Positions 19,411-38,559 of a stretch of 64,000 nucleotides of DNA are shown here, piece by piece (positions within the stretch are counted from its first letter, which is position 1; every line of letters begins with the position of its first letter). The notes under the pieces are model-generated. The model made no database searches and had not been told where the DNA came from. It saw nothing but the letters and a program-made list of their open reading frames with translations. A program made the position numbers and the translations under genes. The stretch comes from Octopus vulgaris (Eukaryota): assembly GCA_951406725.2 (NCBI GenBank), contig OX597815.1, positions 130,324,001 to 130,388,000 of the forward strand. Direction: 5' to 3'.

Positions 19411-20264
19411 CGTGTAAAAATTTACACTTCCTTCTCCAAGTCTAGATTCGAAATCGAATCTAAGAATTCTCGGTCGTCTAAACCGCCACGATCAACAGGC
19501 GCGAAAAAAGGTTTTCTTTGGTCTGTCAAAAAGTGATTGATCGCCTCCCTTTGACGTACGACCTCAGCCATGTCAGGCGAAGTTCAAATGCACAGGAGCT
19601 GACCTATTTAGGTAGAAACTCTACTGCAGTATGTCTGTCCTTCTAGCTGCCACGATTATTATAAATACGGTGATCAACAGACAGACAAAAAGAAAGCAAG
19701 GCCTAGCAGGCAAACGAGAAAGGTCTACGACACAACAGGTTTTGAATGACCGCAGAAACCCGAGAGAAATGTTCGAAGTTCCACGGTAGACTACTGATCT
19801 CAGATGAACTACGCACACACACACACACAGACAAGCATATTCATTTCTGATACATCACTTCCACAGATGTACCCTGTTTCTATTTCTAGTAACTCATAGC
19901 AGTTGTCAACATTTTACATGTAGTGAAGAATTATGTGTACCAACGACAAATTAAATCCAGTCAATAAATTATTTTTAACTATGAATCGATTCACTCATTT
20001 GTTTACTTCAAAGGCATACACATTCCTTTTGCATCTGTTCATCTGATGCACACACATTAACCACTACATTTGGTGACCCCCGTCAACGTATTGCGGCCTT
20101 CCCTTGAACCAGCTTTACCAACCGAACTGCATTTGAAAAATGAAGACATTTTTGTACTGCGGTTGAATTTTCCATTTCAGCACTACGCTCCGTGATCCCG
20201 TCGAAGAATCACAGCTTGCACATCACCTGACAACGAAACAGAACTGAGAGTTCCTGCGAACACA

Positions 20265-23200
20265 ATGGCTCTCCCAGAACATAACCCAGCGGAAAACACA
20301 TCCTCGGTCGACATGGCATTCCAGGCAACGATTCCTGCCACCAACCCTTTCCTTTCGTCGTCTAGTGTTTCGGAAATTTCCGACTTGCGTGCATTGGTCA
20401 CTCAGCGGGCTTCACAGATACAGGCCCTAACAGACCAGATACAAGCCCTATCCCGTGGTATCCAGCATCAAAGCAGCAGCCGATCGCGTCGATATGGTAG
20501 ACGGTCCCGAAGTCCCAGTGCTACCCACAATTCACGTGAAACGTGTTGGTACCATCGAAAATTCGTAACACGGGCACAAAAATGCACGATCCCATGCTCA
20601 TTTTCAGCACCTAGTTTGAGAAACGACACGGCCAGGAATTGAACGCGATGGAAGTTCCTGGCTCGCACCCACAAAGTCGCCTGTTTTTTGTTTGCGATCG
20701 TGTAACAGGCACGCGTTTCCTAGTTGACACCGGCGCGGAAGTCAGCATCATCCCTGTTTCCAACACTTCAGGAAAAAGAAAAGAGACACCAGTCTGTCTT
20801 CAGGCAGTTAACCACTCACCCATTCCAACCTACGGTGAACAGTCCCTAACGCTGAACTTCGGACTACGCCGCACCCTTCAGTGGGTATTTGTCATTGCTA
20901 AACTGCCGACCCCTATCTTAGGAGCCGATTTCCTGCATCATTTCGGTCTCCTGGTAGACATTAAAAACAAACGACTTGTCGACAGCACCGCACAGCTTAC
21001 TGTGCGCGGTATAGCCGTTCGTATGGCCACAGTCAGCCCAACTATATTGCTCACAACGATGACTCGTCACAGTGCTATCCTGAAAGAATATCCGGACGTC
21101 GCTCGACCAGTATTCCACAACCAGCCGATCAAGCACGAAGTCACCCATCACATCAAAACCAGCGGTCCACCTGTTGCTGCAAGACCCAGAAGGTTACCAC
21201 CTGATCGTCTCAAGGCTGTCACGCGGAAATTCCAGCACATGCTCGACCTTGGAATCATCCACCCGTCCAGCAGCAACTAGTCCTCGCCGATACACTGCAT
21301 CCCCAAAAAATCATCGACCGATTGGCAGGTTTGCGGTGATTATCGATCGCTGAATAAAAGTACTGTCAGTGATGCATATTCAGCCCCTATTTGCAGGATT
21401 TTTCTAGCTCGCTGAATGGAGCTCGCATCTTTTCCAAGATCGACCTTGTGCGAGCATACAACCAAATCCCAGTGGAACCTGCGGACATGCCGAAGATAGC
21501 AGTTACTACACCCTTCGGAATGTTTGAATTCCTGCGTATGCCTTTCGGTTTACGCAACGCGGCACAGACATTCCAAATGTTTATCGACATGGTTACTAGA
21601 GGTTTGCCTTTCGTCTATGCCTACATAGACGACATAGTCGTGGCCAGTAGCTCGGATGAAGAACATGACCAACACTTGTACCTGCTATTCAAACGCTTGC
21701 GCAAATACGGTGTTGTTATCAACCCCAGTAATAAAGGGAAGCAACTCCAAATGTACCAAAGTACGTTCGGAGTTACTTCCCTTCATGTTCTCGGGCACAT
21801 CATCGATAAGGATGGCATTCGTTCCCTTCCTGAGAAAGTCAAGGCCATCGTTATTTTTCCACCACTCACATCTCTCCGCAAATTAAAGGAGTATCTCGGT
21901 TGAATGAATTTCTATCGAAGGTTCGTACCCCACCTCGCTAAGATAGCGAAACCGCTCACGGATTTGCTACGTCAGTGAACTTGCAAAAATACGGAAATTG
22001 CCCTGAATGAAGATCAACTCGCCTCTTTTGCTGCCCTGAAAAAAAGCGTTATCCAACGCTACAATGTTGGTTTATCCAAAACCAGACGCCCCACTGTGTT
22101 TACTCGTTGATGCATCCGATTCCGGAGTTGGAGGTGTACTACAGCATCTTGTTGACGGCATATGGCAACCGTTGTCCTTCTTTTCTAAGCGGTTAAAACC
22201 CGCTGAAACAAAATGAAGCACATTCAGTCGGGAATTATTAGCGGCATACCTGGCCGTTAAGCATTTCTGTCACATGCTAGAAGGTGCCAATTTTGTCATA
22301 TACACAAACAACAGACCACTGGTATATGCATTTAACACCAAGCCGGGTCGCCACACGCCGAGAAAAATCCTCCACCTCGACTTCATATCGCAGTATACGA
22401 CGGATATACGCCACATCAAAGGGACGACCAACTTAGCAGTCGATGCACTTTCACGCACGCTGATCATTGCTATCTACACCACGGCTACAATTGATCTGGC
22501 ACGTATAGCAGCTGACCAGGAGAATGACGAAGAACTTCTAAAGCTCCGGGATTCGTCATCTCTGAAATTTCAGCATGTTCCGCTACCATCGTCCACGGCC
22601 CATATTTGGTGTGATATCTCCAACGGTCACCAACGCCCTTATGTACCACAGAAACATAGTCGAGAAGTTTTCTCTGCTCTGCATTCTCTGTCACATCCTG
22701 GTATTCGCTCCACTCAAAAGTTGATATCGACCCGTTTTGTGTGGACCAGTATCAGCAAAGATATCAACGAATGGATCAACTGCTGTGTCGTGTGCCAAAA
22801 ATCGAAAATCTACCGGCACATAAAATCACCAATCGGTTCCTTTTCGCAACCCGATGCACGATTTCAGCACGTTCACATTGACATCGTGGGACCTCTGCCA
22901 CCTTCGCAGAATTATACACATTTGCTTACCTGCGTGGATCGTTTTCCGCGGTGGCCCGAAGCTTGGCCCTTATCTGAAACTCCACCTGTCTAACACCCGT
23001 GGATATGTTTACAAAGTCAGGAAACAGCACAGCTCCCATGACTTTAGGAAACATTTTTTCACGCTAAGAGTTGCTGAAGCATGGAATAGACTGCCGGCAT
23101 CAGTTGTTAGTTGTCGGAGCACTGCATCCTTCAAAACTTCCATGCTTCCTGAGATTTGCCAACACTACACCTGATTTTCTCCCCTCCATTCGCACGCAAG

Positions 23201-24153
23201 CATGTATCTGACTCATACACTGTTCGCTTTCCAGACATTTGTACATTACTGCCTATACTTTATACGCACTTTTTGACAAGTTGTGGTGCACCTGAGCACT
23301 GTATACAATAATTTCATTATTATTTATTATATATACATCGGTAGAAACGGTCGCCAAAACTTTGATATCACAATGGGTTTCGCGTTTTGGCACACCCGCA
23401 ACAATCACCACCGACAGAGGATGTCAGTTCGATTCCCACCTCTTCACCAAGCTAACTCGTCTCCTCGGGTGTAGACACACCGGTACTGCATCTTACCACC
23501 CTTCAGCAAATGGCATGGTCGAACGTCTTCACCGCCAACTCAAGGCATCTATTAAAGCATCTTCAGGCAGTTCTCACTGGCTGGAACATCTCCCTCTCAT
23601 CCTCCTTGGTATTCGATCCACGGTTAAGAAGGAAGTTGGATATACTCTGGCTGAACTCGTCTATGGCACAGCACTCACCTTACCTGGGCAGATGATCAAA
23701 CCTGTTTCATCACAAGACTTTCATGACCCAGCACAATATGTGCACCGATTACAGACATCCATGTTGCATTTGTCACCTGCAGGCCCCAGACAACAGAACG
23801 TCGTTTCACATGTCCCAAAAGACATCAACACTTGGACTCATGTTTTCGTGAGGAATGATGGAATACCATCTCAACTTCGGCCACCATATTCCGGGCCCTA
23901 CAAAGTTATCAAAAGAGAACAGAAGTATTTCGTTCTCGATATTGGAGGTAAACGAAATACGGTATCGATTGATCGTTTGAAAAAAGCCTTCATTGGGGAG
24001 GACTTACGTTCAGCTCCCTCTGTTCCTCGAACGGACTCACCAACTCCAGCAAACACAACAGATTCTGCACAACCCCGGCACACTAAATCGGGAAGAACAG
24101 TTCGATGGCCAGCAAGGTTTGTGCAAGTTTTTCGGGTAAGTCCCAACTCTTAA
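20265..24153 (+). pseudogene. gag (3' part)-pol pseudogene of the CsRn1-like Gypsy
   Basis: Consecutive ORF fragments PR-RT-RH-IN with stops and frameshifts; the gag N-terminus is missing. Confidence 0.9.
22978..23333 (+). mobile_element. 5'-truncated CR1-like LINE 3' end inserted in the Gypsy integrase
   Basis: TRGYVYKV...RKHFFTLRVAEAWNRLP...FK plus 3' UTR and (tta) tail; integrase WPEAWPLS...[17 protein letters not shown] flanks it. Confidence 0.88.
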
Positions 24154-24734
24154 CCTACCTATATTCTTAAATGAAATGCATACATCAATACATAACTCAC
24201 ATGACTGCTTCACCCACATACAAACCCAAAGAAATCAACGAACATTTGTATACATAAAGAAAAAAGGAAAACAAAAAAACGTTGTTCCACATCAACGAAA
24301 AACTCTGTATGAACATTTACTGAACATTTCACAAACGAACTTTTTTCGATGAACATTTCTTTCATTTTTCGTATGTACATATTTTTTGCTTTCTTTTTAA
24401 AATGTTTTGCCTTCTTGTAAAAATATTTAGCTACCCGTGTGCTTACACACACTTACAACAGTCACATTCTCATGTGTGCTACCATTTGATCTTTTGCGCC
24501 AATGAAAGACACCTTGCCTCTATTAGACCTCTAGTGGGTTGAGTAATCAATAGACGCACATCTCTTTCAACGCGCCAACTTGTTTCTGCTTGGACGCATA
24601 TATGTATTGCCTACCATATGGTACACACCAACAGTAAATCTTTGCTTCATATTTTTATATTCCATGTTTTTAACATATATTCATTTGTCTGTTACAGTGG
24701 CAGTTGTCAACATTTTGCATGTAGTGAAGAATTA

Positions 24735-26068
24735 CACAACGTAACAACTTTTTTTAAAAATTGTTTATTGTATTTTTTTTTATTGTTTATCAATCCATTT
24801 TTTCTGATGTTTCCAAAAATGAAATTATTTTTTGTGTATCATCAACAGTTAAAAAAATATGTCGACTTTCAATGTTATTATATAATGTTCCGCTACTAAA
24901 TGTATGTCTAATTTTCTCTTTCAGACCAATTACTAAGTTGTGCTACTTTCAGGATGGCTACTAGAGTATGTAAAAATTCTCCAGATACATTTTGCTATGT
25001 GTGTGGTTATTATATTGGAAAAAAGCAGGTATTACATAAGATCGTGAAAGGTGCTAAATTGTGGACAGTGTACAGACTATTTCGGAATGCCCATGGGTGA
25101 CCAGGACAAACCATGGGCCCCCACATGTGATATGTGGAAGCTGTCAGTCTACTTTAGAATGATGGTTAAGAGGTACAGGACGGTCAATGCCTTTTGCCAT
25201 TCCAAGGGTATGGAGAGAGCCAAAGAACCATCACGATGACTGTTACTTTTGTATGATCGATGTGACAAAGTACAGAAAAGTGAAAAGAAGACAAGCTCTT
25301 CAGTATCCAGACATACCATCATCTAGAGCACCTGACAGTTTGCGAGTACCACTACCACCAGAAAATATTTCATCTGAAGAGTCGACAAGTAGCAGCAGCC
25401 AAGAAATGGAGGAAATTTCGTACCATGAACGACTTCAGAGCTTCACTTTCCAAATCAGAGTGAGCTAGATAATTTAATCAGGGATCTGGGTCTTTCTAAG
25501 TCAGGAGCTGAACTTTCATGAAGGTTGAAGGAATGGAATCTACTGGGGGAAGACTGCAAGACATCTGTGTACTGGAAACGCCATGAAGTGAGGATTACGG
25601 TGAGAGATTTCATCAGGATGTCGCAACTATGGAAAGAAAGTACTAAGGACGATGGAATACTCCTATGATGGGAGATTATATATGGTCTCTAGTCAGAAGA
25701 GATGAAGGTAAACACTCCAGAAAATCTCGATCGTCAAAGCACTTCTCATCTTAAGAAAAGAGTTATCAAGGTATTTACAGTGCAGAGTTTTATTGTTTCT
25801 TTTTGTTCTAATATTATACTTCATAAATACCTTTCAATATATGAAAAAGTACTAAATGTTGTGTAATTATCCTTACAATACAGAATAGATTGAACCAACA
25901 AAGTGCTGTAGAGAAAATTTACAAATAGAACGAGCGAATATGAAATTAGGAATAAATATATAACTATCGATGTTACGTCAAAACGAATGTGATTTTTGGA
26001 TTTAGTGGCAAAAAATGCATGTATGAACATTAAAAAATACAAATAAACAAAACATGTGTTACATTGTG
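24735..26068 (+). mobile_element. Internally deleted Chapaev3-like (CMC) DNA transposon inserted in the Gypsy 3' LTR
   Basis: CACAACGTAACA...TGTTACATTGTG TIRs; TTA TSD (empty site gaattatgtg in the 5' LTR); transposase remnants FCYVCG, GDQDKPWAP, MPFAIPRVWREPKNHHDDCYFC, GERFHQD. Superfamily assigned from CAC termini plus TWA TSD. Confidence 0.8.
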
Positions 26069-26344
26069 TTATGTGTACCAACGACAAAATAAGTCCAGTG
26101 AATAAATTATTTTTAACTATGAATGTGCGTACATATTTCTTTTGCATCTGTTCACCTGATGCACACGCATTAACCACTACAACCCTTTAGGTTAATAACG
26201 TGATATAACGGTGAATTCAAAGTTTTAACAACAGTGATCCCCAGAAAACCGTGACAAAATGTTCATAATAATTCTGGATGTTTACAAAATATTTCGATGC
26301 TAGGTTTTAGTATATTAATACAGGAATGTAAATATTCTTTTTTT

Positions 26345-28805: not shown

Positions 28806-29523
28806 TAATAATAATGATGATGATGATAACAACAACAACAATAATAATAATAAGGCTCCTGGCTTAAAATCTGAAACAGAAGGATTTATCGTAGCAGCCC
28901 AAGATCAATGCCTACCTACAAGGAACTACCAAGCCAACATATTCAAAAACGGCATCTTCCCAACATGCCGTGTATGTCAACAACAAAAACCATTGATCAT
29001 ATTGTCTCCATGTGCAGTCTTCTTGCGCCTACAGAGTATCTCAACAAGCATGATAGAGCTGCATAATATATTCACTGGGTAATTTGCAAAAACCTGGACT
29101 TACCCCATGATAAAAACTGGTGGGAACACAAACCACCTCCAGTGCTTGAAAATGATCACATCTCACTCCTCTGGAACTTCACCATTCGAACTGACAGAAA
29201 GATAGATGCAAATAGGCCAGACATAATATTGAATGACTTCAGGCAAAAGTCATGCCTCCTCATTGATATGACTGTCCCAATCGATATAAACGTATCTGTC
29301 AAGACCTACCAAAAACTGAGCAAGTATAAAGATCTTGAAATAGAAATTAGCAAAATGTGGAACCTGAAGACGAAAACAATACCTGTTGCCATAGGTGCCT
29401 TAGGAATGATAGCAAAAGGAGCTGATTGCTACCTAGCTCAGATACCAGGAAACCCTAAAATGGCAGAAATTCAAAAGATAGTGCTCGGAACTGCCCATAT
29501 CCTACACTAAACACTTTCTATGT

Positions 29524-32500
29524 TGTGGTGTTATGGGCTGTGATGAGATGTGGTGTTGGTGGAGAGGATTGCAGTTGAGGTAAACGGAAGTGAAAACTGC
29601 AGGGGCCGGCGGAAGATCCACGGAGGAATGCGTGGGCAAAAAGCGCGAGTTGGCATTTCGAAGAGAGACGGCAGCGTGCAAGGACGTTTTTTTCTTGACA
29701 GTGATCGCTCATCCCGCCTTGGTCAACAGGTAAGCTCTCTGTATTTCTTTCTCCCTTTTGCTTCTTTTTCCTCTATCACACTACAAGCTATTTCGGCCCA
29801 TAACTAAAAAGAAAAAAACGAATGATGAGTGTAGTCCGTATTTCGAACGATGTGGTCAAACTGTTTTGCGGTGACACGGATGTAGTCGCTTGGTTGAAGA
29901 AGATAAAGTTGGTTGCGAAACACCACGGTGTAAACGACTTAGCGAGTTTTATACCGCTGTACCTAGATGGTTCGGCGTTGGCGCTATACCTAGAAATGGA
30001 AGAAAGGGACTAGCTTAGCACGGAAAAAATAGCAATCTGTTTGATGGAGGCCTTTGCAGAAGGGATGTTCGAAGCGTACGCTCGTCTGAGGAAAGCAAGT
30101 GAACTGGCGAACAGGTCGACGTATTTGCGAATGAGCTCAGAAGATTGGCTAAACTGGCGGGATATGAAGGCGAATCACTGGACCGAACGGTTAAGTTAGC
30201 GTTTGTGACTGGCTTTCCTGACCACATGTCGGTCGAGTTGCAAAAGCTGCCGAACATTAACTCTATGGCGATGGCAGACATTATATCTCGGGCTCGCGTG
30301 CTAGTTTCGTGTTGCAGGACAACGCCGGTAGCAGCGACTGCAACAATGAAAAGTGGCCGAGCAAGGAGCAGCGGAGAGGGGTCAAACAAGAAACGTCTGT
30401 GACCATGCAAAGGACAGTGTTTCCAGTGTCAGGGCCCGCATATGGTACGAAACTGCAAGTCACTCAAGCCTGATGCCATTTGGTGCCGGTGTCGAGAAAC
30501 GGGACATATAGCCAGCGAATGTCTGCGGGGAAACGGTCTAAGGGAGACTACTGCGCCGGTAGTTATCCCTTCGGATCAATAGAAGCGCGTTTATCGTTAC
30601 CTGTAGTCGACATTCTGGTGGAGGGGAAGATGTTGCGAGCCTTTGTGGACACGGACTGTACGATGACCCTGATGACTCCAGAAGTGGCAGAGACATGGAG
30701 TGGAGAAAGCAGTATAAGGGCAGTCGACGGAAGAGAGGTACACTGTGAAGGCATTACAGATGCGCAGATTATGGTGCACAGAACAAAGCTAACGCTGCGA
30801 GTAATTGTAGTTGGCCACTTGGTGGACGAGATTGCCGTGGTGATGGGGATGGATGCAATCACCCGTTTAGGAGGTGTCACTATCAACAAGGCCGGTATAA
30901 TGTTCGGGTTTGCGGGGAAACCGTGTATGGCGAGACCGTGCATTGGTGAGAACCGCGAAGAAAAGTATGCTGCATACACCATTGAAGACCGGGTCTTTCG
31001 TGCTGTCTTCAATGGCCAGAGGTGGACAGTGGAGTGGCACTGGAAGGGAGAGCCCCCGACGTTAAAAAATAAAGTGGGTGCTATCAGAATACTCTGAAAG
31101 GAGATGGTAGAAGTGAGTTCGAGGGGGAGGTGGAGCGGTGGATTAAGGAGGGCATATTGATCCCTTGGGAAGAAGTAGAGAGCGGAGTCCTGCCGCTGAT
31201 GGCGGTGATACAGCCCACAAAGCATAAGGTCAGGCCAGTGCTTGACTTCCGAGAGCTGAATACAGGCGGCGAGGCCACATATGTCTGCGGGGACACCTTG
31301 CGAGAGTGGAGGCAAATGACAGAGGCCTCCACGATCGTCGATTTGAGGTCGACATACCTGCAGGTGTATGTGGCTGAGAGACTGTGGAAGTATCAGCTTG
31401 TCAGGTATAAGGGCCGGACATACTGTCTGACCAGGCTGGGGTTCGGGCTAAATTCAGCGCCAAAGTTTATGGCAACAATTCTTAAGGCCATCCTGGGAAA
31501 GGTGGACAGGGTAAAAAGGGCCACCAATTTGTACATTGATGACATCCTGGTGGATGACGTAATGCCTGCAACGGAGGTCATAGGTCACCTGAAGAGTTTT
31601 GGAATGATCGCCAAGCCACCAGAGGCGATGGAGGGAGGTGCTGCGCTGGGCCTCAAGCTATAGAGAGACAAGGCCGGCGCGTTGGTGTTCCGGCGAGGGA
31701 ACGAAATCCCCGAACTGGGCACCAGCATGAGTAGACGGGAACTGTTCTCAGTGTATGGGAAGCTGGTGGGACACTATTCGATTGCAGGGTGGCTCTGAAT
31801 AGCATGTAGCTTCATCAAGAGACGAGCCGAAGGAGCGAAGTGGAACGATAGAGTGGGGGAGAAAACGACCGACATGATACAGGAAGTCTTGGTCAGAGTG
31901 AGAGCAGAGGATACAGTGGGGGACAAATGGTATGTTCCCAAATCAAAGAGCGGGATCGTATGGTGTGACGCCAGTAGCATCACAATAGGGGTTGTCTTGG
32001 AAGTGGGAGGCGTCGTGGTGGAAGATGCAGTCTGGCTCAGAAAGACGGATAACTGCAACCATATAAATGTGGCGGAGTTGGATGCCGTGTCGAAGGGAGT
32101 GAACCTAGATTTGAAGTGAGGGTTGCGCACCATAGAAATTAGGACCGATTCGGTCACTGAACTTGGTTGAGTGACAACAGTTATCACCAATGAGCGGGGG
32201 TATGAACCAAAGGACCTGCTGAGATGTTGGTAAAGCGTCGATTGGGAATACTGCGTGAACTAACCACTGAGGTCAATCTGAGCTGAGTGTGATCTTTGTG
32301 CCTTCTGAGAACAGGGCAGACGTCCAGACCAGGGTAAAGCGAGCCTGGTTGCAGGTGCCAGAGGATGAAGAGCAGGCTGTGGCTGCAGTATGCCGTCTGA
32401 GTGACTCGGAGTTGAGAAGATTGCATACCATGCATCACATGGGGGTGGACAGGACATTGTTCCTAGCCAGAAAAGTTGACTCCGATGTAACAAGACGGAG

Positions 32501-33769
32501 CGTGCAGAGAGTGGTTAGCAGCTGTGAAGGTGCCAGTCCATCGACCCTGCTCCGGACGTACATGAGGCGGGAAGTATTCCAGTGGATCACAACTGAACAC
32601 GACTGGCAGTTGTCATAACACACTACCGTCAGGGGACATACCTCTCAATGGTTGATTGCGGACCGGGACGGTTGGCCATATGGAGGGAGATGAAGACGAG
32701 GACCGCAGAGGAAATCGTGTGAGTACTAAATGAGATATTCCTGGAACGAGACCCCGTGGATGAGCTGCTTCTGGATAATGGAACCTCATTTCGCTCGGAG
32801 GTGCTGAAAGACATGCGTGATGGGTGGTAGGTCAACCGCTTCTTCAGGGCGGCATACCGGCCAAGTGGAAATGGAGTGGTGAAAAGGCATCATCGTACCA
32901 TCAAGACCATGGCAGAGAGGGGCCACATTTTACCAATCGAGACCGTATTTTGATACAATATATCACCCAGGACAGGACAGGCTGAGGAGTCGGTGTGACA
33001 CAGGGCAATATTCAGGTAGGAGTGAAGGCATCCATGTACTGCATCAATGCGACCCGGGACAAAGGAAGATCACGCCTTCGTGCAGGTCGGGGAAGAAGTT
33101 TGGGTAAAATCCCCAAACGCACGGTGTACATCACGATGGGGAAAGGGAACAATAACCTCCATCAATTCGAAGAACAACGTCTCTGTCGATGGTATGCCAC
33201 GCCATGTTTTGGGTGTGCGGAAGACTGTCAATGCCTCAGAGGATGGAACCAGCAGTGGCGGGCAAGAAGATGAAGACAGCAACAGTAAGCAAGAAGATGA
33301 AGACAGCAGCAGTAGGCAAGATGAGGAAGCCAGCAGCAGCATGCCAGGAACTCAGGCCAGTAGCTGGGTCACACGGCGACCACAGAGGGAGCGACACCCT
33401 CCTCCCTGGTTGGCTGATTATGAAACCAGTTAAGGTGTGAGTTCGAGAGCGAGGAATGAGTGGGAAAGCCGGTTGAATGATCTGTAGATCGGGGGGGGGT
33501 ATGGGCTGTGATGAGCTATATAGTGTTGGTGGAGAGGATTGCAGATGAGGTAAACGGAAGTGAAGACTGCAGGGGCCGGCAGAAGAGCCACGGGGGCATG
33601 CGTGGGCCGGCAGCACGTGTGGGTAGTTCGATGAGAGACGGCAGCGTGCAAGGACGTGTTTTTTCTTGACAGTGATCGCTCATCCCGCCTAGGTCAACAG
33701 GTAAAGTCTCTGTATTTCTTTGTCCTTTTTGCTTCTTTTTCTGTTGTCATTTTTCTCCATCACAGTACA
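29524..33769 (+). mobile_element. Full-length decayed Gypsy-like LTR retrotransposon (element P1)
   Basis: LTRs 29524-29785 and about 33500-33769; 5-bp TSD tatgt; poly-G PPT; gag with zinc knuckles; PR VDTDC; RT LGFGLNSAP/YIDD; RH WCDAS..HINVAELD; IN HHMG; domain order PR-RT-RH-IN. Confidence 0.92.
29786..29797 (+). promoter_or_regulatory. Atypical primer-binding site AGCTATTTCGGC (complement of tRNA-Phe nt 1-12)
   Basis: Lies immediately after the 5' LTR CA; identical in element P2; reverse complement is GCCGAAATAGCT. Confidence 0.8.
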
Positions 33770-33965
33770 TATGTAATCTCAAATTTTAAAACAAACACAT
33801 AATTTTCTTATGGTTTCTTAAACATTCTCTAGAACAACACTATGTACAAAACCAAGTATATGGCTCCCTAAGCACAACACAAACATCAACGTATAACTTG
33901 TCTCTTGAAATCTCTGGGTGAGACTTGGAGCCAACTTGTACAAATGTAAAGCGAAAGTCAAACAT

Positions 33966-33967
33966 AA

Positions 33968-34021
<54 letters not shown>

Positions 34022-34233
34022 TATTATTATTATTATTATTAATAATTATTATTACTACCCATGTATTTTAATTTAACTTAAAAAAAAAAATGAACGAACT
34101 ATTGAGTTTAGTTTAATGGCCTACCAATGTATACTATGAGTTTCTTTGCCTTAGGAGTCGGGAAGACACTCGGCAAGAAATGGAAGCAAATTTGAAAGAA
34201 GAAAAAAAAGTAATAACAATAATAATAATAATG

Positions 34234-34289
<56 letters not shown>

Positions 34290-34290
34290 T
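33966..34290. repeat. (TAA)n/(TTA)n microsatellites
   Basis: Direct reading: 33966-34055 and 34210-34290. Confidence 0.95.
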
Positions 34291-34612
34291 GTTTCAAATT
34301 TTGCCACAGGGCTAGCAATTTTGAGGGGAGGGTTATGTCAATACCATCAAGTCGAGTATTGAGTGGTACTTTATTTTATCGTTCCCGAAAGGATGAAAAG
34401 CAATGTTGACCTCGGCGTGATTTGAACGCTCAAGAATAATGATTATATTAAAAAAAGATTTAATAACATTTTAGACAGGTTAAAGAGCCCCACCACCACC
34501 ACCAACACCACCACCACACGTAAACACAAGAACAGCGACAGTTTCCACCAGCAAGTTCCCTTAGAAAGCAATGGTCGGCCCAGGAATAAAGAAGACACTT
34601 GCTTAGGATGTC

Positions 34613-37600
34613 TGTGGGGATGAGATGAACCGGAAGGAAAGGGCTGTGACGTCAACGGCCGAAGGGCTCCACCGGAACAGGAAGGGCGAGAGAGAAAGTG
34701 AAAGAAGCAAGACTAGAGTTGTGCTATTTCGAGTTGGGGTAGAGGTGGTGAACGGACGCGAGTGGACCAGCTGCTAACGTTACGTGAGACGGGAAGAGCA
34801 CGTGTTTGGACTTAACACAGTTAGACAGCTGTCAACGAGAGGTAGGTGAATCATATTTTATCCCCGCAGTACAGTTCCCTCATACCACAAGCTATTTCGG
34901 CTCTCGTATATGAATATATTTTTCTGTTGTTGTCCTCTTCCAGGAGATGACAGCGAAGATAAGAATCGGCAACGATGCCGTCAGACCTTTCTGTAGCAAA
35001 CGAGATGTGATCGCCTGGATCCGTAAGATCATGGTGGTGGCCAGACTACAAGTCATCAGCGATGTAGCAGGTCTCATGGCCATGTATCTGAAGGGAAGCG
35101 CGTTGGCGCTGAACTTCGAGGTGGATGAGGAAGACCAACTGAACTCGGCGAAGATCGAGCAGTGCTTCAAAGAAGCCAATACGGAAGGAATGTACGTCGT
35201 GTTTGTTAAGCTGGGAACGGTCAGGTGCGCAGGGAACAGACGACAAGTATGCTGCAGGGGTTCGGAGACTGGTCATGCTATCTGGTTTTACCGGAGAGGG
35301 CCTAGAGAAGGTGGCAAGATTGGCTTTCGCAAATGGTTTTCCCGACGACAAATGGCGACTCAAAACATCGAGCAGAAGGCACTGGCAATGACAGTTGGGG
35401 AATCCTGCGACGGAATGCGACGATCAGTAAAGAATGAGGAGAGAAAACTGCCGTGGAGCGATAGAGACCGTTCATGGGCCGGTGTTTCAAGTGTTAGGGA
35501 CCGCACATGACAAGGGACTGCGAGGAGACAAAGCCTGGACCTGTTTGCTACCGGTACAGGCAGACTGGGCATATCGCTCGAAACTGCAGCCAGGGAAAAG
35601 GCCACAAGAAAGTTTCTGCTTCTGAAACCTCCCCCACTGAAGTTTTGGTTGGGGGAAAGGCGTTCAAAGCCCTCGTGGATACGGGCTGTGGGACGTCTCT
35701 CGTGACCCCGAGGGTGACAAAAAAAAGTGGGGCGGACAAGTAGTGTTCGGGCGGTCGACGGCAGCGAAACTGGATGTAAGGGTAGCAGTGAAGTGGAGAT
35801 AGCAGTGCGGGGCACAACGCTGAGGTTTCAGGCGATTGTGATCGACCATGTGATAGACGGAATTGACGTGGTGAACGCAATCAACCGCCTTGGAGGTATC
35901 AGTGTCAGTGGAAACGTGGTTTCGTTTGGTGGTGCAGGGGCATCATGCTCTGTGAGTCTGCAACATGAGAGGGGGAAGAGCTCCGTGGGGAATTGTGCGG
36001 CTTACACCACCGAGGACAAAGATTTTCGGGTGGTGCGATACAAGGGCTAGACATACTGTTTTACTAGGCTGGATTACGAGCTAAATTCTGCGCCAAAGAT
36101 CATGGTGACAGTGCTCAAATCTATCCTGGGGATGGTGGACAAGATTTAAAAGGCCACCAATTCCTATATAGACAACATACAACATCTTGGTAGATGAGAC
36201 TGTGGTGTCTGCCGCAGAGATTGTAAATCATCTAAAGAAGTTCGGGCTGACTGCGAAGCAACCGGAGCCAATGGGTGGAGGAACTGCACTGAGGTTCAAG
36301 CTTCAAAGAAAAAAAAAACAGGTGTATTGGTGTTTCGGAGGGGGAATGAGATCCCGGAGCTGGGTACCAGCGTCAACAGGCGAGAGCTATTCTCGGTGTG
36401 TGGGAGAGCAGTGGGTCACTATCCAATCGCAGGGTGGCTACGAATATCGTGCAGCTACATCAAGAGACAAGCAGACGGAACAAAGTGGGAGAGGAAACGG
36501 TGGTGATGATGCAGGAGATCCTAAAGAGGGCAAGAGCAGAAAACCCAGTAAGAGGAAACTGGTACGTGCCCAAACTGGAGAATGGGACCGTATGGTGCGG
36601 AGCTAGCTGCATAGCGATAGGGGTTGTTCTGGAAATCGGAGGCGTCGAAGTGGCTTCGAAAAGCAGATGATTACAACCATATCAACGTGGCTGAGTTGGA
36701 CGGAGTGCTGAAGGGAGTGAATCTGGCCCTGAAATGGGGGCTGCATTCCACCGAAATCCGAACCGATTCGGCTACCGTGTTCACCGATGAAAAGAGAGTT
36801 TGAACCAAAGGGGATGCAGAGAGATTAGTAAAGCGCCGCCTAGGGTTCTAGGAGAGCTAGCTGCCGAATTTGGTTTGAAGCTGGGCGTAGTCTTTATGCC
36901 TTCAGAAAGGAACAAGGCAGATATTTCAACCAGGGTGAAAAATACCTGGTTGGCGGAGCCGAGAGATTCGAAATGGGATAGCTGTAGTGTGTCGGCTAAG
37001 TGACTCGGAACTAAGGAGAGTGCATGCCATGCATCATATGAGCGTAGATAGAACCCTGTATCTTGCCAGAAGGGTTGACTCCTACGTTATTAGACAGAAC
37101 ATTCAAAAAGTGGTCGGGAACTATAATAGGTGTCAATCCATCGACCCTGCTCCGGGTGTGAGCGAGCAGGGAAACATCTCGGTAGAGCACAACTGGAGAC
37201 GATTGGTGGTGGATGTGACACACTACCGGCAGGGGACGTATCTCTCGATGATCGACTGGACCGGGTCGATTGGCCATATGGATGGAAATGAAGACAGGCA
37301 CTGCAGATGAGTTGCACGTATCTTGAATTAGATATTCGTGGAGCGGGGCCCTGTGGATGAATTGCTGATGGACAACGGCACTGCATTTCGTTCGAAGATA
37401 CTGAAAGAGATGCTTGATAAGTAGAATGTGTACCGCTTCTTCAGAGCAGCATACAGGCCGAGTGGAAATGATATCGTGGAAAGGCACCATGGTGAAGACG
37501 GGACACTAGAAGTGGTATTCTGGTACAATATATTGCTCCGACCAGGACAGGCCAAAGAGTCCGTTCCACACAGAGTGATATTCAGATATGAATGGTGGCA

Positions 37601-37627
37601 TCTGAGTAAACCATCAAAATGCCCTGC

Positions 37628-37686
<59 letters not shown>

Positions 37687-38274
37687 TATCTTAGTGTAGG
37701 TAGGGGATGAAGTCTGGGTTAAGACCCTGAAGATACACTGCACATCTCAGTGGAACAGAGAAACAGTAACGGCTGTTAATTCCAAAATAACGTTTCGGTG
37801 GATGGAATGCCGCGTCACATCTTGGATGTTTGCAGAACTGTCGCTTCGTTGGACGACGAAGGTGGAGAAGGGGAAGAGAACGAGGATCCATTCCTGCGGA
37901 GATCATAGTGCGCGAGGCATCCAACCGAGTGGATAGCAGATCTCAACACGGAGTGAAGAGAAGAGGTGATCTTTGAGATCAGGCGAGTGTGTGGGGATGA
38001 GATGAACCAGAAGGAAAGGGCTGTAGCGTCAACGGCTGAGAAGCCCCAGCGGAACAGGAAGGTGCGAGAGATGAAGTGAGGGGAACAAGACTAGGATCGT
38101 ACTCTTTCGGCCTGGGGCAGTGGTGGTGAACGAGCGAACGATTGGTACTAGTAGCTGCTAACGTTAGGTAAGTTGGGAATGGTACGTGTTTAGACTTAAC
38201 AGAGCTGGACAACCAACTACGAGAGGTAGGTGAACCGTATTTTGTTCCCCGCATTACAGTGCCCTCATACCACA
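34613..38274 (+). mobile_element. Second decayed Gypsy-like LTR retrotransposon of the same lineage (element P2), inserted in a SINE B fragment
   Basis: LTRs 34613-34889 and 37990-38274 (TGTGG...CCACA); TSD atgtc/gtgtc; gag/PR (LVDTGC)/RT/RH/IN remnants homologous to P1, with an internal RT deletion. Confidence 0.9.
34890..34901 (+). promoter_or_regulatory. Atypical primer-binding site AGCTATTTCGGC (complement of tRNA-Phe nt 1-12)
   Basis: Lies immediately after the 5' LTR of P2; identical to the P1 site. Confidence 0.8.
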
Positions 38275-38559
38275 GTGTCACGTAGTGGGATTGAACTCAG
38301 AAGCAAGGGGTTGCAAAGCGAGCTGCCAAATCACAAAGCCACCCCAATATAATAATAATAATAATAACAATAATAATAATAATAAAATGACAGAAACTAC
38401 CGAAATAAACAAAATTAAAGCAAGAAAGATAGAATAAATTACTATACTGAAACTTCAGCTTCATCGTGGTATAAACGTAGTTTCCCAAAATAAACGCGTG
38501 TGTTTAAAATAAGAAAAACTGCAAATATTTTTGCATCAGCTTAATACTTTAGATACTAC

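What the first reader, a model, noticed from the sequence alone, without database searches (positions are those of the whole stretch)
29786..34901. Two LTR retrotransposons with a PBS complementary to the 5' END of tRNA-Phe (possible priming by a 12-nt 5' tRNA fragment)
Seen: elements P1 and P2 have clearly different LTRs, yet both 5' LTRs are followed directly by the identical 12-mer AGCTATTTCGGC (29786-29797; 34890-34901). Identity stops immediately after it, and there is no TGG. Established: canonical PBSs start with TGG and pair with the tRNA 3'-CCA end; the known exceptions are half-tRNA(iMet) priming (copia, Ty5) and self-priming (Tf1); metazoan tRNA-Phe(GAA) begins GCCGAAAUAGCU. The 12-mer is the exact reverse complement, and conservation ends precisely at tRNA nucleotide 1. 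Inference: this lineage primes minus-strand synthesis with a tRNA-Phe 5' fragment ending at nt 12 in the D-stem, perhaps cut by the element's own RNase H. I do not know of a description of this priming mode but cannot check the literature.
Basis: partly seen in the sequence, partly recalled or inferred. Interest (0 to 1): 0.9.

Follow-up and report, generated by a model that had tools for sequence, protein, structure and literature searches.

The report
Retrotransposons primed by tRNA 5′ ends
A widespread family of jumping genes carries, where DNA copying starts, a 12-letter site that pairs exactly with the first 12 letters of a host tRNA rather than its usual tail end, so these elements likely start copying from a tiny cut-off piece of tRNA, a priming route we found no description of.

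Summary
Both broken LTR elements carry AGCTATTTCGGC directly after the CA of the 5' LTR, the exact complement of nt 1-12 of this genome's tRNA-Phe genes. CA+12-mer occurs 287 times against 14 control matches; 27 of 30 RT-selected copies carry it.

Protein-selected relatives from metagenomes keep a 12-nt site at the same place. Some have switched it to the exact complement of nt 1-12 of tRNA-Lys or tRNA-Met, and conservation stops at tRNA nt 1. Self-priming and splice-junction priming tested negative.

Best reading: the primer is a tRNA nt 1-12 fragment (about 0.85), most likely cut by the element's RNase H (inferred, untested). The commonest metagenome variants could not be tied to a host tRNA, and no fragment was observed.

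A second oddity: the plus-strand site is a covarying hairpin plus about 8 G-rich bases.

The lineage runs from sponges to cephalopods and has Gypsy domain order; its superfamily is unresolved. No description turned up in 10 literature searches (Repbase not searchable) or 4 look-ups of earlier scan notes.

The parts
29519..29523 (+). P1 left target-site duplication (TATGT)
   Evidence: same 5-mer at 33770-33774
29524..29785 (+). P1 5' LTR, TG...CA
29727..29734 (+). Splice-donor-like motif CAG|GTAAG near the end of the P1 LTR
   Evidence: donor-like motif within 90 nt of the site in 28 of 30 own-genome loci
29786..29797 (+). P1 primer-binding site, exact complement of tRNA-Phe(GAA) nt 1-12
29822..30580 (+). 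P1 gag, broken (stops, frameshift), with CCHC zinc knuckles; end approximate
   Evidence: zf-CCHC E=0.005, below cut-off
30543..33433 (+). P1 pol, broken: protease, RT (YIDD), DUF7047, RNase H, DDE integrase; start approximate
   Evidence: only DUF7047 passes its Pfam cut-off in this copy; intact homologues carry the other domains
33478..33499 (+). P1 plus-strand priming region: short hairpin (33478-33491) running into a G tract
33500..33769 (+). P1 3' LTR (first bases damaged relative to the 5' LTR)
33770..33774 (+). P1 right target-site duplication (TATGT)
34613..34889 (+). P2 5' LTR, TG...CA, not detectably similar to the P1 LTR
34890..34901 (+). P2 primer-binding site, same 12-mer
34947..37957 (+). 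P2 gag-pol remnant, broken, front of RT deleted, GA microsatellite in the integrase tail; end approximate
37967..37989 (+). P2 hairpin (37967-37981) and short purine-rich tract
37990..38274 (+). P2 3' LTR; flanks ATGTC (34608-34612) and GTGTC (38275-38279)

Best explanation
The 12-base site behind the 5' LTR pairs exactly with the first 12 nucleotides of a host tRNA (Phe in this genome, Lys or Met in some relatives), and that tRNA is likely cut after nt 12, probably by the element's own RNase H, so that the 12-nt piece would prime minus-strand DNA synthesis. Shown: position of the site, exact complementarity, switching between tRNA 5' ends, and the absence of a 3'-end PBS or self-primer. Inferred: (1) the element RNA invades the acceptor stem and the 5' strand of the D-stem; the 12-bp duplex is predicted at -18.7 kcal/mol against -8.8 for the tRNA's own acceptor stem alone (D-stem not counted); (2) a cut at or near the end of the duplex leaves a 3'-OH next to the LTR's CA; a cut after nt 10 that leaves two bases for integrase trimming cannot be excluded; (3) RT extends it into the LTR. 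I put the primer's identity at about 0.85 and the element's RNase H as the cutter at about 0.65 given that.
For: 287 exact CA+12-mer sites against 14 control. 25 exact and 2 one-mismatch sites among 30 RT-selected copies. Of 46 protein-selected metagenome loci with a gag N-terminus, 40 have an A|AGCTA-anchored site, 3 more have the Phe-type site has a Met-type site and 2 are too short. Columns 9-12, not fixed by the anchor, are 0.89-0.97 uniform and column 13 drops to 0.46 (37 rows); 34 of 38 distinct sites follow CA. L247 matches nt 1-12 of tRNA-Lys(CUU) genes. L206 and L241 match a tRNA-Lys gene start, which also ends a published 5'tRF-Lys(TTT) probe (PMC4688932). L251 matches nt 1-12 of intron-containing tRNA-Met(CAT) genes, changing even the first base of the site in step with tRNA nt 12. 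The duplex ends at nt 12 whether nt 12 is U or G, which fits a cut set by the duplex end. The four RNase H catalytic motifs are each kept in 85-89 of 91 long homologues. Tf1-type self-priming needs a cut in the element's own RNA (PMC4600332 passages); that Tf1's RNase H makes it is recalled, and the paper was not held.
Against: 27 of 38 distinct metagenome sites are not tied to a tRNA gene of this genome. The 18 sites of the two other common types read GCCG(C/T)GATAGCT: this start is at control level in this genome and was not among 9 eukaryote-type tRNA-Phe genes from viral contigs. It does start 26 of 37 viral-contig tRNAs, mostly Thr, but that search pattern was biased toward tRNAs and those are not the hosts. 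Three sites (L235, L263, L266) do not end in the expected GC, and L248 has one mismatch to the Lys start. Three of 30 RT-selected copies lack the site within 1.5 kb; I did not check whether they are truncated. Conserved RNase H residues are needed for ordinary replication too, so they do not single out this cut.
Confidence: 0.55

Rival explanations
1. Same primer, different maker: a host nuclease or the host's tRNA-fragment pool supplies the nt 1-12 piece, and the element only selects it.
For: Half-tRNA primers cut in the anticodon stem are known (PMC6317226 section 13), and 5' tRNA fragments exist (PMC7472051 passages). Sequence alone cannot name the cutter.
Against: The end point is nt 12 in three different tRNAs with different bases there and coincides with the end of the element-tRNA duplex. 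From my own knowledge, described 5' fragments are usually 14 nt or longer, and RNase A/T2-type cuts leave an end that cannot be extended directly.
Confidence: 0.28
2. An intact tRNA is anchored by its 5' strand for packaging, dimerisation or translation control, and DNA synthesis starts another way (for example from the displaced 3' CCA end or a protein).
For: The complementarity shows pairing, not cutting. Pairing of nt 1-7 would free the tRNA's 3' acceptor strand.
Against: The duplex ends at the LTR boundary exactly as a primer must. In 6 intact copies the longest match to tRNA nt 13-76 is 7-9 nt at scattered places, so the 3' end has no landing site.
Confidence: 0.1
3. Tf1-like self-priming, directly or through a splice junction made in the LTR.
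For: Own-genome LTRs carry a strong splice-donor motif, and contigs from two runs guessed to be RNA leave the LTR there.
Against: The best complement of the site inside the LTR has 4-6 mismatches in 18 of 18 LTR pairs. In 62 upstream regions the pairing run never exceeded the shuffled maximum, and no GT/GC-AG junction rebuilt the primer. The site stays fixed while LTRs are unrelated.
Confidence: 0.02
4. The motif is an integrase attachment extension, a splice acceptor or an antisense Pol III box that resembles a tRNA by chance.
For: The site begins with AG after a pyrimidine-rich LTR end in this genome and with the palindrome AGCT.
Against: L251 starts with CG, losing both AG and the palindrome, yet matches tRNA-Met. 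Conservation covers tRNA nt 1-7, which are outside the A box (own knowledge), and not nt 13 onward. No joint at the site is listed.
Confidence: 0.02

Closest known systems
Half-tRNA-primed Ty1/copia elements (Osser, Bryco, Gymco-II, Bianca in PMC6317226; fungal Copia and Helenus in PMC10886601; Drosophila copia and Ty5 recalled)
   Same: The primer is a 5' piece of a host tRNA whose new 3' end starts DNA synthesis, and elements switch between tRNA species.
   Different: There the cut lies in the anticodon stem and the site pairs with the anticodon region; reported only in Copia. Here the site pairs with nt 1-12, the cut would be in the D-stem, and the element has Gypsy domain order.
Tf1/Tj1/sushi self-priming chromoviruses (PMC4600332 passages; Tf1 mechanism recalled)
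   Same: A short primer of about 11-12 nt taken from the very 5' end of an RNA and released by a cut at the end of an RNA-RNA duplex next to the LTR.
   Different: There the RNA is the element's own transcript. Here the LTR holds no complement and the partner is a host tRNA.
Ty3/Gypsy (Metaviridae), including unnamed or MolGy-type invertebrate clades (PMC6238403)
   Same: TG...CA LTRs, 5-bp TSD, order Gag-PR-RT-RH-IN, DDE integrase; the clade's RT-RH profile scores Gypsy copies higher (up to 71 bits) than BEL proteins (18-49).
   Different: No Pfam Gypsy RNase H family at cut-off, DUF7047 instead, GPY/F motif in only 2 of 91, no 3'-end PBS, no long polypurine tract. Whether it equals a published MolGy clade could not be tested.
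Troyka / Kuafuorterviruses (PMC12440569, PMC11673190)
   Same: A deep, small LTR lineage of aquatic animals with Gypsy domain order and no GPY/F motif.
   Different: Troyka has CG...CG ends, 3-bp TSDs and IADD/VADD/LADD in RT; this has TG...CA, 5-bp TSDs and YxDD. The Troyka main text never mentions a PBS or tRNA.

Membership tests
LTR retrotransposon | Direct terminal repeats TG...CA with 4-6 bp TSD | tested here: met
   LTR pairs in 18 of 22 regions; perfect 5-bp TSD in 9 of 11 copies checked
LTR retrotransposon | Gag, protease, RT, RNase H, DDE integrase | tested here: met
Canonical tRNA 3'-end priming | PBS begins TGG and pairs with the CCA end | tested here: not met
   a different element in the same window does have TGG
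Half-tRNA priming (Copia type) | PBS pairs with the anticodon stem-loop; cut in the anticodon stem | tested here: not met
   pairs with nt 1-12; definition from PMC6317226 section 13
Half-tRNA priming (Copia type) | Integrase upstream of RT | tested here: not met
   integrase follows RNase H
Tf1/sushi self-priming | PBS complementary to the element's own LTR transcript | tested here: not met
Ty3/Gypsy (Metaviridae) | Order PR-RT-RH-IN | tested here: met
Ty3/Gypsy (Metaviridae) | RT-RH falls inside Gypsy in a tree | tested here: inconclusive
   26 clade rows form one side of a branch (SH-aLRT 84) apart from 6 Gypsy rows (2 families) and 14 BEL rows; long branches meet, no root, no DIRS, Copia or retrovirus rows
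Ty3/Gypsy (Metaviridae) | GPY/F motif after the integrase core (common, not universal) | tested here: not met
   2 of 91 long homologues
BEL/Pao (Belpaoviridae) | Peptidase_A17 and BEL-specific domains; RT inside BEL | tested here: not met
   one sub-threshold hit in 13 proteins; separate branch
Troyka / Kuafuorterviruses | CG...CG ends, 3-bp TSD, xADD motif | tested here: not met
DIRS | Tyrosine recombinase in place of a DDE integrase | tested here: not met
   rve integrase in 10 of 13 proteins scanned and no recombinase family; likeness of the RT and RNase H motifs to DIRS was not tested in a tree
5'-terminal tRNA-fragment priming (proposed) | A 12-nt fragment is made and is joined to strong-stop DNA | not testable with these tools
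   only assembled contigs were available

The most novel reading that the evidence does not exclude
An animal-wide, deeply separate LTR retroelement lineage uses a fourth priming route: its RNA pries open a host tRNA, its own RNase H cuts the tRNA after nt 12, and the 12-nt piece primes the minus strand, while a covarying hairpin plus 8 G-rich bases replaces the long polypurine tract for the plus strand. Neither feature has been described.
Probability: 0.45. Interest if true: 0.93.

Novelty: new variant of a known kind. Interest (0 to 1): 0.86.

Why it matters
A survey of plant LTR retrotransposons lists three primer types: whole tRNA, half tRNA and self primer (PMC6317226 section 13). A primer made of tRNA nt 1-12 would be a fourth, joining the host-tRNA source of the second type to the short duplex-end cut of the third. 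It predicts a retroelement enzyme that cuts host tRNA in the D-stem and a defined 12-nt tRNA fragment. It would also put these elements outside the 3'-fragment silencing described for mammalian ERVs (PMC7472051) and possibly within reach of 5' fragments. Pipelines that test only the last 12 nt of tRNAs (as in PMC13524379) would score the whole lineage as having no PBS. Young copies with near-identical LTRs exist in this genome, so the question can be tested directly.

Tried and rejected
Viral contigs: no relative by protein search. The 14-mer scan there returned 120 or more stretches that I did not examine further and do not use.

Self-priming and splice-junction priming: negative. A second tRNA-binding box for nt 13-76: none in 6 copies.

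Lys-type or GCCG(C/G/T)G-type sites or tRNA starts in this genome: control level. A census of eukaryote-type tRNA-Phe starts in viral contigs matched none of the variants, 0 of 9.

Sequencing runs: no RNA holder on record is listed; contigs cannot show RNA ends.

DIRS outgroup: the 7 tyrosine-recombinase loci of this genome gave no RT match. The two own-genome BEL copies were too decayed, so database BEL proteins were used. The structure model and fold search confirm protease-RT-RNase H-integrase folds but do not place the lineage; the viral-library fold search was not run. Atlas hits include clusters labelled Euglenozoa on 3 members each, a lead only.

Script faults: double-printed six loci and was replaced. 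The hairpin scorer missed some visible stems, so its count is a floor; 10 loci gave no anchor.

Literature: 10 searches. Lineage motifs were absent from the supplements searched (in one search only two DIRS rows matched one motif). One file and three were not searched, and the Troyka supplement was unavailable, so an existing clade name may be hidden there.
Full report
Observation. The 12-mer AGCTATTTCGGC stands at 29786-29797 and 34890-34901, each time directly after the CA that ends a 5' LTR. P1 spans 29524-33769 with TSD TATGT; P2 spans 34613-38274 with flanks ATGTC/GTGTC. Their LTRs are no more alike than shuffled sequence. Both copies are broken, and P2 lacks the front of RT. A different LTR element in the same window, at about 19.9-26.2 kb, has an ordinary TGG-type site. 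The nearest named protein relative of the P1 RT is from the cephalopod Argonauta.

In this genome. CA plus the 12-mer occurs 287 times against 14 for the reversed control. In the first 30 of these loci the flanks vary freely on both sides. Selection by RT alone gave the site in 27 of the top 30 copies (25 exact, 2 with one mismatch); 3 had none within 1.5 kb. Among 22 longer regions (P1, P2 and 20 fetched), 18 showed an LTR pair beside the site. The alignment ended at the CA in 13 of the 18, 1 base short in one, 1-9 bases beyond in three, and 15 bases short in P1, where the LTRs differ by an indel. Nine of 11 copies checked have a perfect 5-bp TSD. tRNA-Phe(GAA) genes begin with the exact complement: 85 matches, 0 control, 15 of 15 loci called by ARAGORN. 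Pairing covers nt 1-12 and fails at nt 13.

In other organisms. A protein-profile scan of metagenome contigs returned 76 loci, chosen without reference to the site. Of 46 with a gag N-terminus, 40 have an A|AGCTA-anchored site, 2 are too short, and 4 had none by that script. Three of those 4 (L196, L210, L212) show the Phe-type site. The fourth, L251, reads CA|CGCTACCGAGGC just before the gag ATG. Among 38 distinct anchored sites, 34 follow CA. Columns 1-5 are fixed by my anchor, but columns 9-12 are 0.89-0.97 uniform and column 13 falls to 0.46 (37 rows), so conservation ends at tRNA nt 1.

Switching between tRNAs is the strongest evidence. L247 is the exact complement of nt 1-12 of tRNA-Lys(CUU) genes (13 of 14 loci called tRNA-Lys). 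L206 and L241 match a tRNA-Lys gene start seen once here (1 of 3 stretches fetched) and the end of a published 5'tRF-Lys(TTT) probe (PMC4688932, one passage). L251 matches nt 1-12 of intron-bearing tRNA-Met(CAT) genes (44 matches, 0 control; 7 of 10 loci called); its first base changes from A to C as tRNA nt 12 changes from U to G. These comparisons use this genome's tRNAs as stand-ins, because the hosts of the metagenome contigs are unknown.

Against, or open. 27 of the 38 sites are not tied to a tRNA gene of this genome. Eighteen read as GCCG(C/T)GATAGCT. This genome has neither that tRNA start nor that site above control, which fits host matching but does not show it. The start begins 26 of 37 viral-contig tRNA loci (19 Thr, 4 Phe, 3 other, a pattern biased toward tRNAs) and 0 of 9 eukaryote-type tRNA-Phe genes. 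L235, L263 and L266 end irregularly and L248 has one mismatch. On an RT-RH tree the site type needs 12 changes among 39 loci (no shuffled baseline; L261, L326 and L328 left out), so it changes often; the two GCCG(C/T)GA types could share one tRNA through a G-U pair (inference).

Rivals tested. The LTRs hold no complement better than 4 mismatches. In 62 upstream regions the pairing run did not exceed shuffled maxima, and no splice junction rebuilt the primer (this test was prompted by two earlier scan notes). tRNA nt 13-76 has no conserved landing site in 6 intact copies. The Met-type site removes the AG and the AGCT palindrome, which argues against a splice acceptor or attachment motif.

Mechanism. 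A primer must present a 3'-OH beside the LTR end, and here that position is tRNA nt 12, so the tRNA must be cut (inference from the standard model). The duplex is predicted at -18.7 kcal/mol against -8.8 for the acceptor stem alone. I favour the element's RNase H because the end point follows the duplex and not the tRNA sequence, and because Tf1 is recalled to cut its own 11-nt primer this way. I could not retrieve that paper; the Tj1 paper, of which I saw passages, describes self-priming and a needed cleavage site. RNase H catalytic motifs are kept in 85-89 of 91 homologues. No fragment or cut was observed.

The plus-strand side is also unusual. Before the 3' LTR there is no long purine tract, only about 7-8 G-rich bases preceded by a 5-7 bp hairpin. 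With an anchor set without regard to the hairpin (own-genome rows anchored at the 3' LTR start), 29 of 44 distinct sequences have 5 or more Watson-Crick pairs at the fixed register, against a shuffled mean of 0.27 (maximum 2), and registers 3 or more bases away give 0-1; 10 loci gave no anchor. The stems change on both sides together (for example TGATC/GATCA, TGAAC/GTTCA, AGTTC/GAACT, TGGCG/CGCCA). It may shield the plus-strand primer from RNase H or serve in RNA dimerisation; neither was tested.

Family. Intact relatives encode Gag, protease, RT, DUF7047, RNase H and a DDE integrase. Named carriers include Sycon, Trichuris, Nymphon, Amphibalanus, several malacostracans, Aplysia and Argonauta; their DNA, and so their sites, were not seen. 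The lineage is not Troyka/Kuafuortervirus, BEL or DIRS by the tested features. It branches apart from the two Gypsy families and the BEL proteins sampled, but the tree cannot place it. It works like half-tRNA and Tf1 priming combined and is a member of neither.

Literature seen. Parts 1-2 of 3 and a supplement search of PMC11673190; parts 1-3 of 5 of PMC12440569; passages and section 13 of PMC6317226; passages of PMC12859917, PMC3587641, PMC4600332, PMC7472051, PMC10886601 and PMC4688932; passages and supplement searches of PMC13524379 and PMC6238403; supplement search only of PMC8556966; a term search without hits in PMC12789967. Ten library searches gave no paper describing this site. A search for six of the 12-mers found 31 papers; none of the 25 listed concerns retrotransposons by title or abstract start. 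Repbase, GyDB and most subscription journals were not searchable, and some supplements were unreadable, so a prior remark remains possible (I estimate about 1 in 4). Four look-ups of earlier scan notes found nothing matching.

Verdict. Real and lineage-wide. Priming by a tRNA nt 1-12 fragment is about 0.85 likely; with the element's RNase H as cutter about 0.55. New variant of a known kind; interest 0.86.

Noticed in passing
window 33478-33499 and 37967-37989; metagenome loci such as L197, L219, L242, L250: A 5-7 bp hairpin with compensatory changes sits at a fixed distance before a G-rich tract of only 7-8 bases at the 3' LTR, in place of a long polypurine tract (29 of 44 against 0.27 shuffled).
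   Followed up: partly
window 29727-29734 and 34839-34847; L310:614 and L310:4598: Own-genome LTRs carry a splice-donor motif 35-85 nt before their end. Contigs from two runs guessed to be RNA leave the LTR at that point into the same foreign sequence, a weak hint of an LTR-driven spliced host transcript.
   Followed up: partly
L310:567: Contigs from two runs of different studies, both guessed to be RNA, begin at the same LTR base, 116 nt before the site; a possible transcription start, but contigs cannot show RNA ends.
   Followed up: no
window about 19931-26181: A second, unrelated LTR retrotransposon with an ordinary site (CA, TT, then TGGTGACCCC at 20071), resembling the tRNA-Trp-type PBS quoted in PMC3587641.
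   Followed up: partly
window about 28850-29510: P1 inserted just behind what looks like the decayed 3' end of a non-LTR retrotransposon ORF; the label is from recall and Pfam gave no hit.
   Followed up: no
G000:C18:30147728-30157146: An array of tRNA-Phe-start matches at a 200-base period, more than 40 copies; not checked with ARAGORN.
   Followed up: no
L397, L401-L406: tRNA-Met(CAT) genes of this genome carry an intron in the anticodon loop, about 21-22 bases in the clearest calls.
   Followed up: partly
proteins P0200, P0202, P0203, P0214, P0219, P0282: A subclade that includes sponge (Sycon) proteins has a single Gag-Pol frame of about 1400 aa whose integrase is not matched by the profile of the main clade; its priming site is unknown.
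   Followed up: partly
L270: A distant element with a matching RNase H motif, followed by a separate frame with integrase-like motifs; it may be a sister lineage.
   Followed up: no
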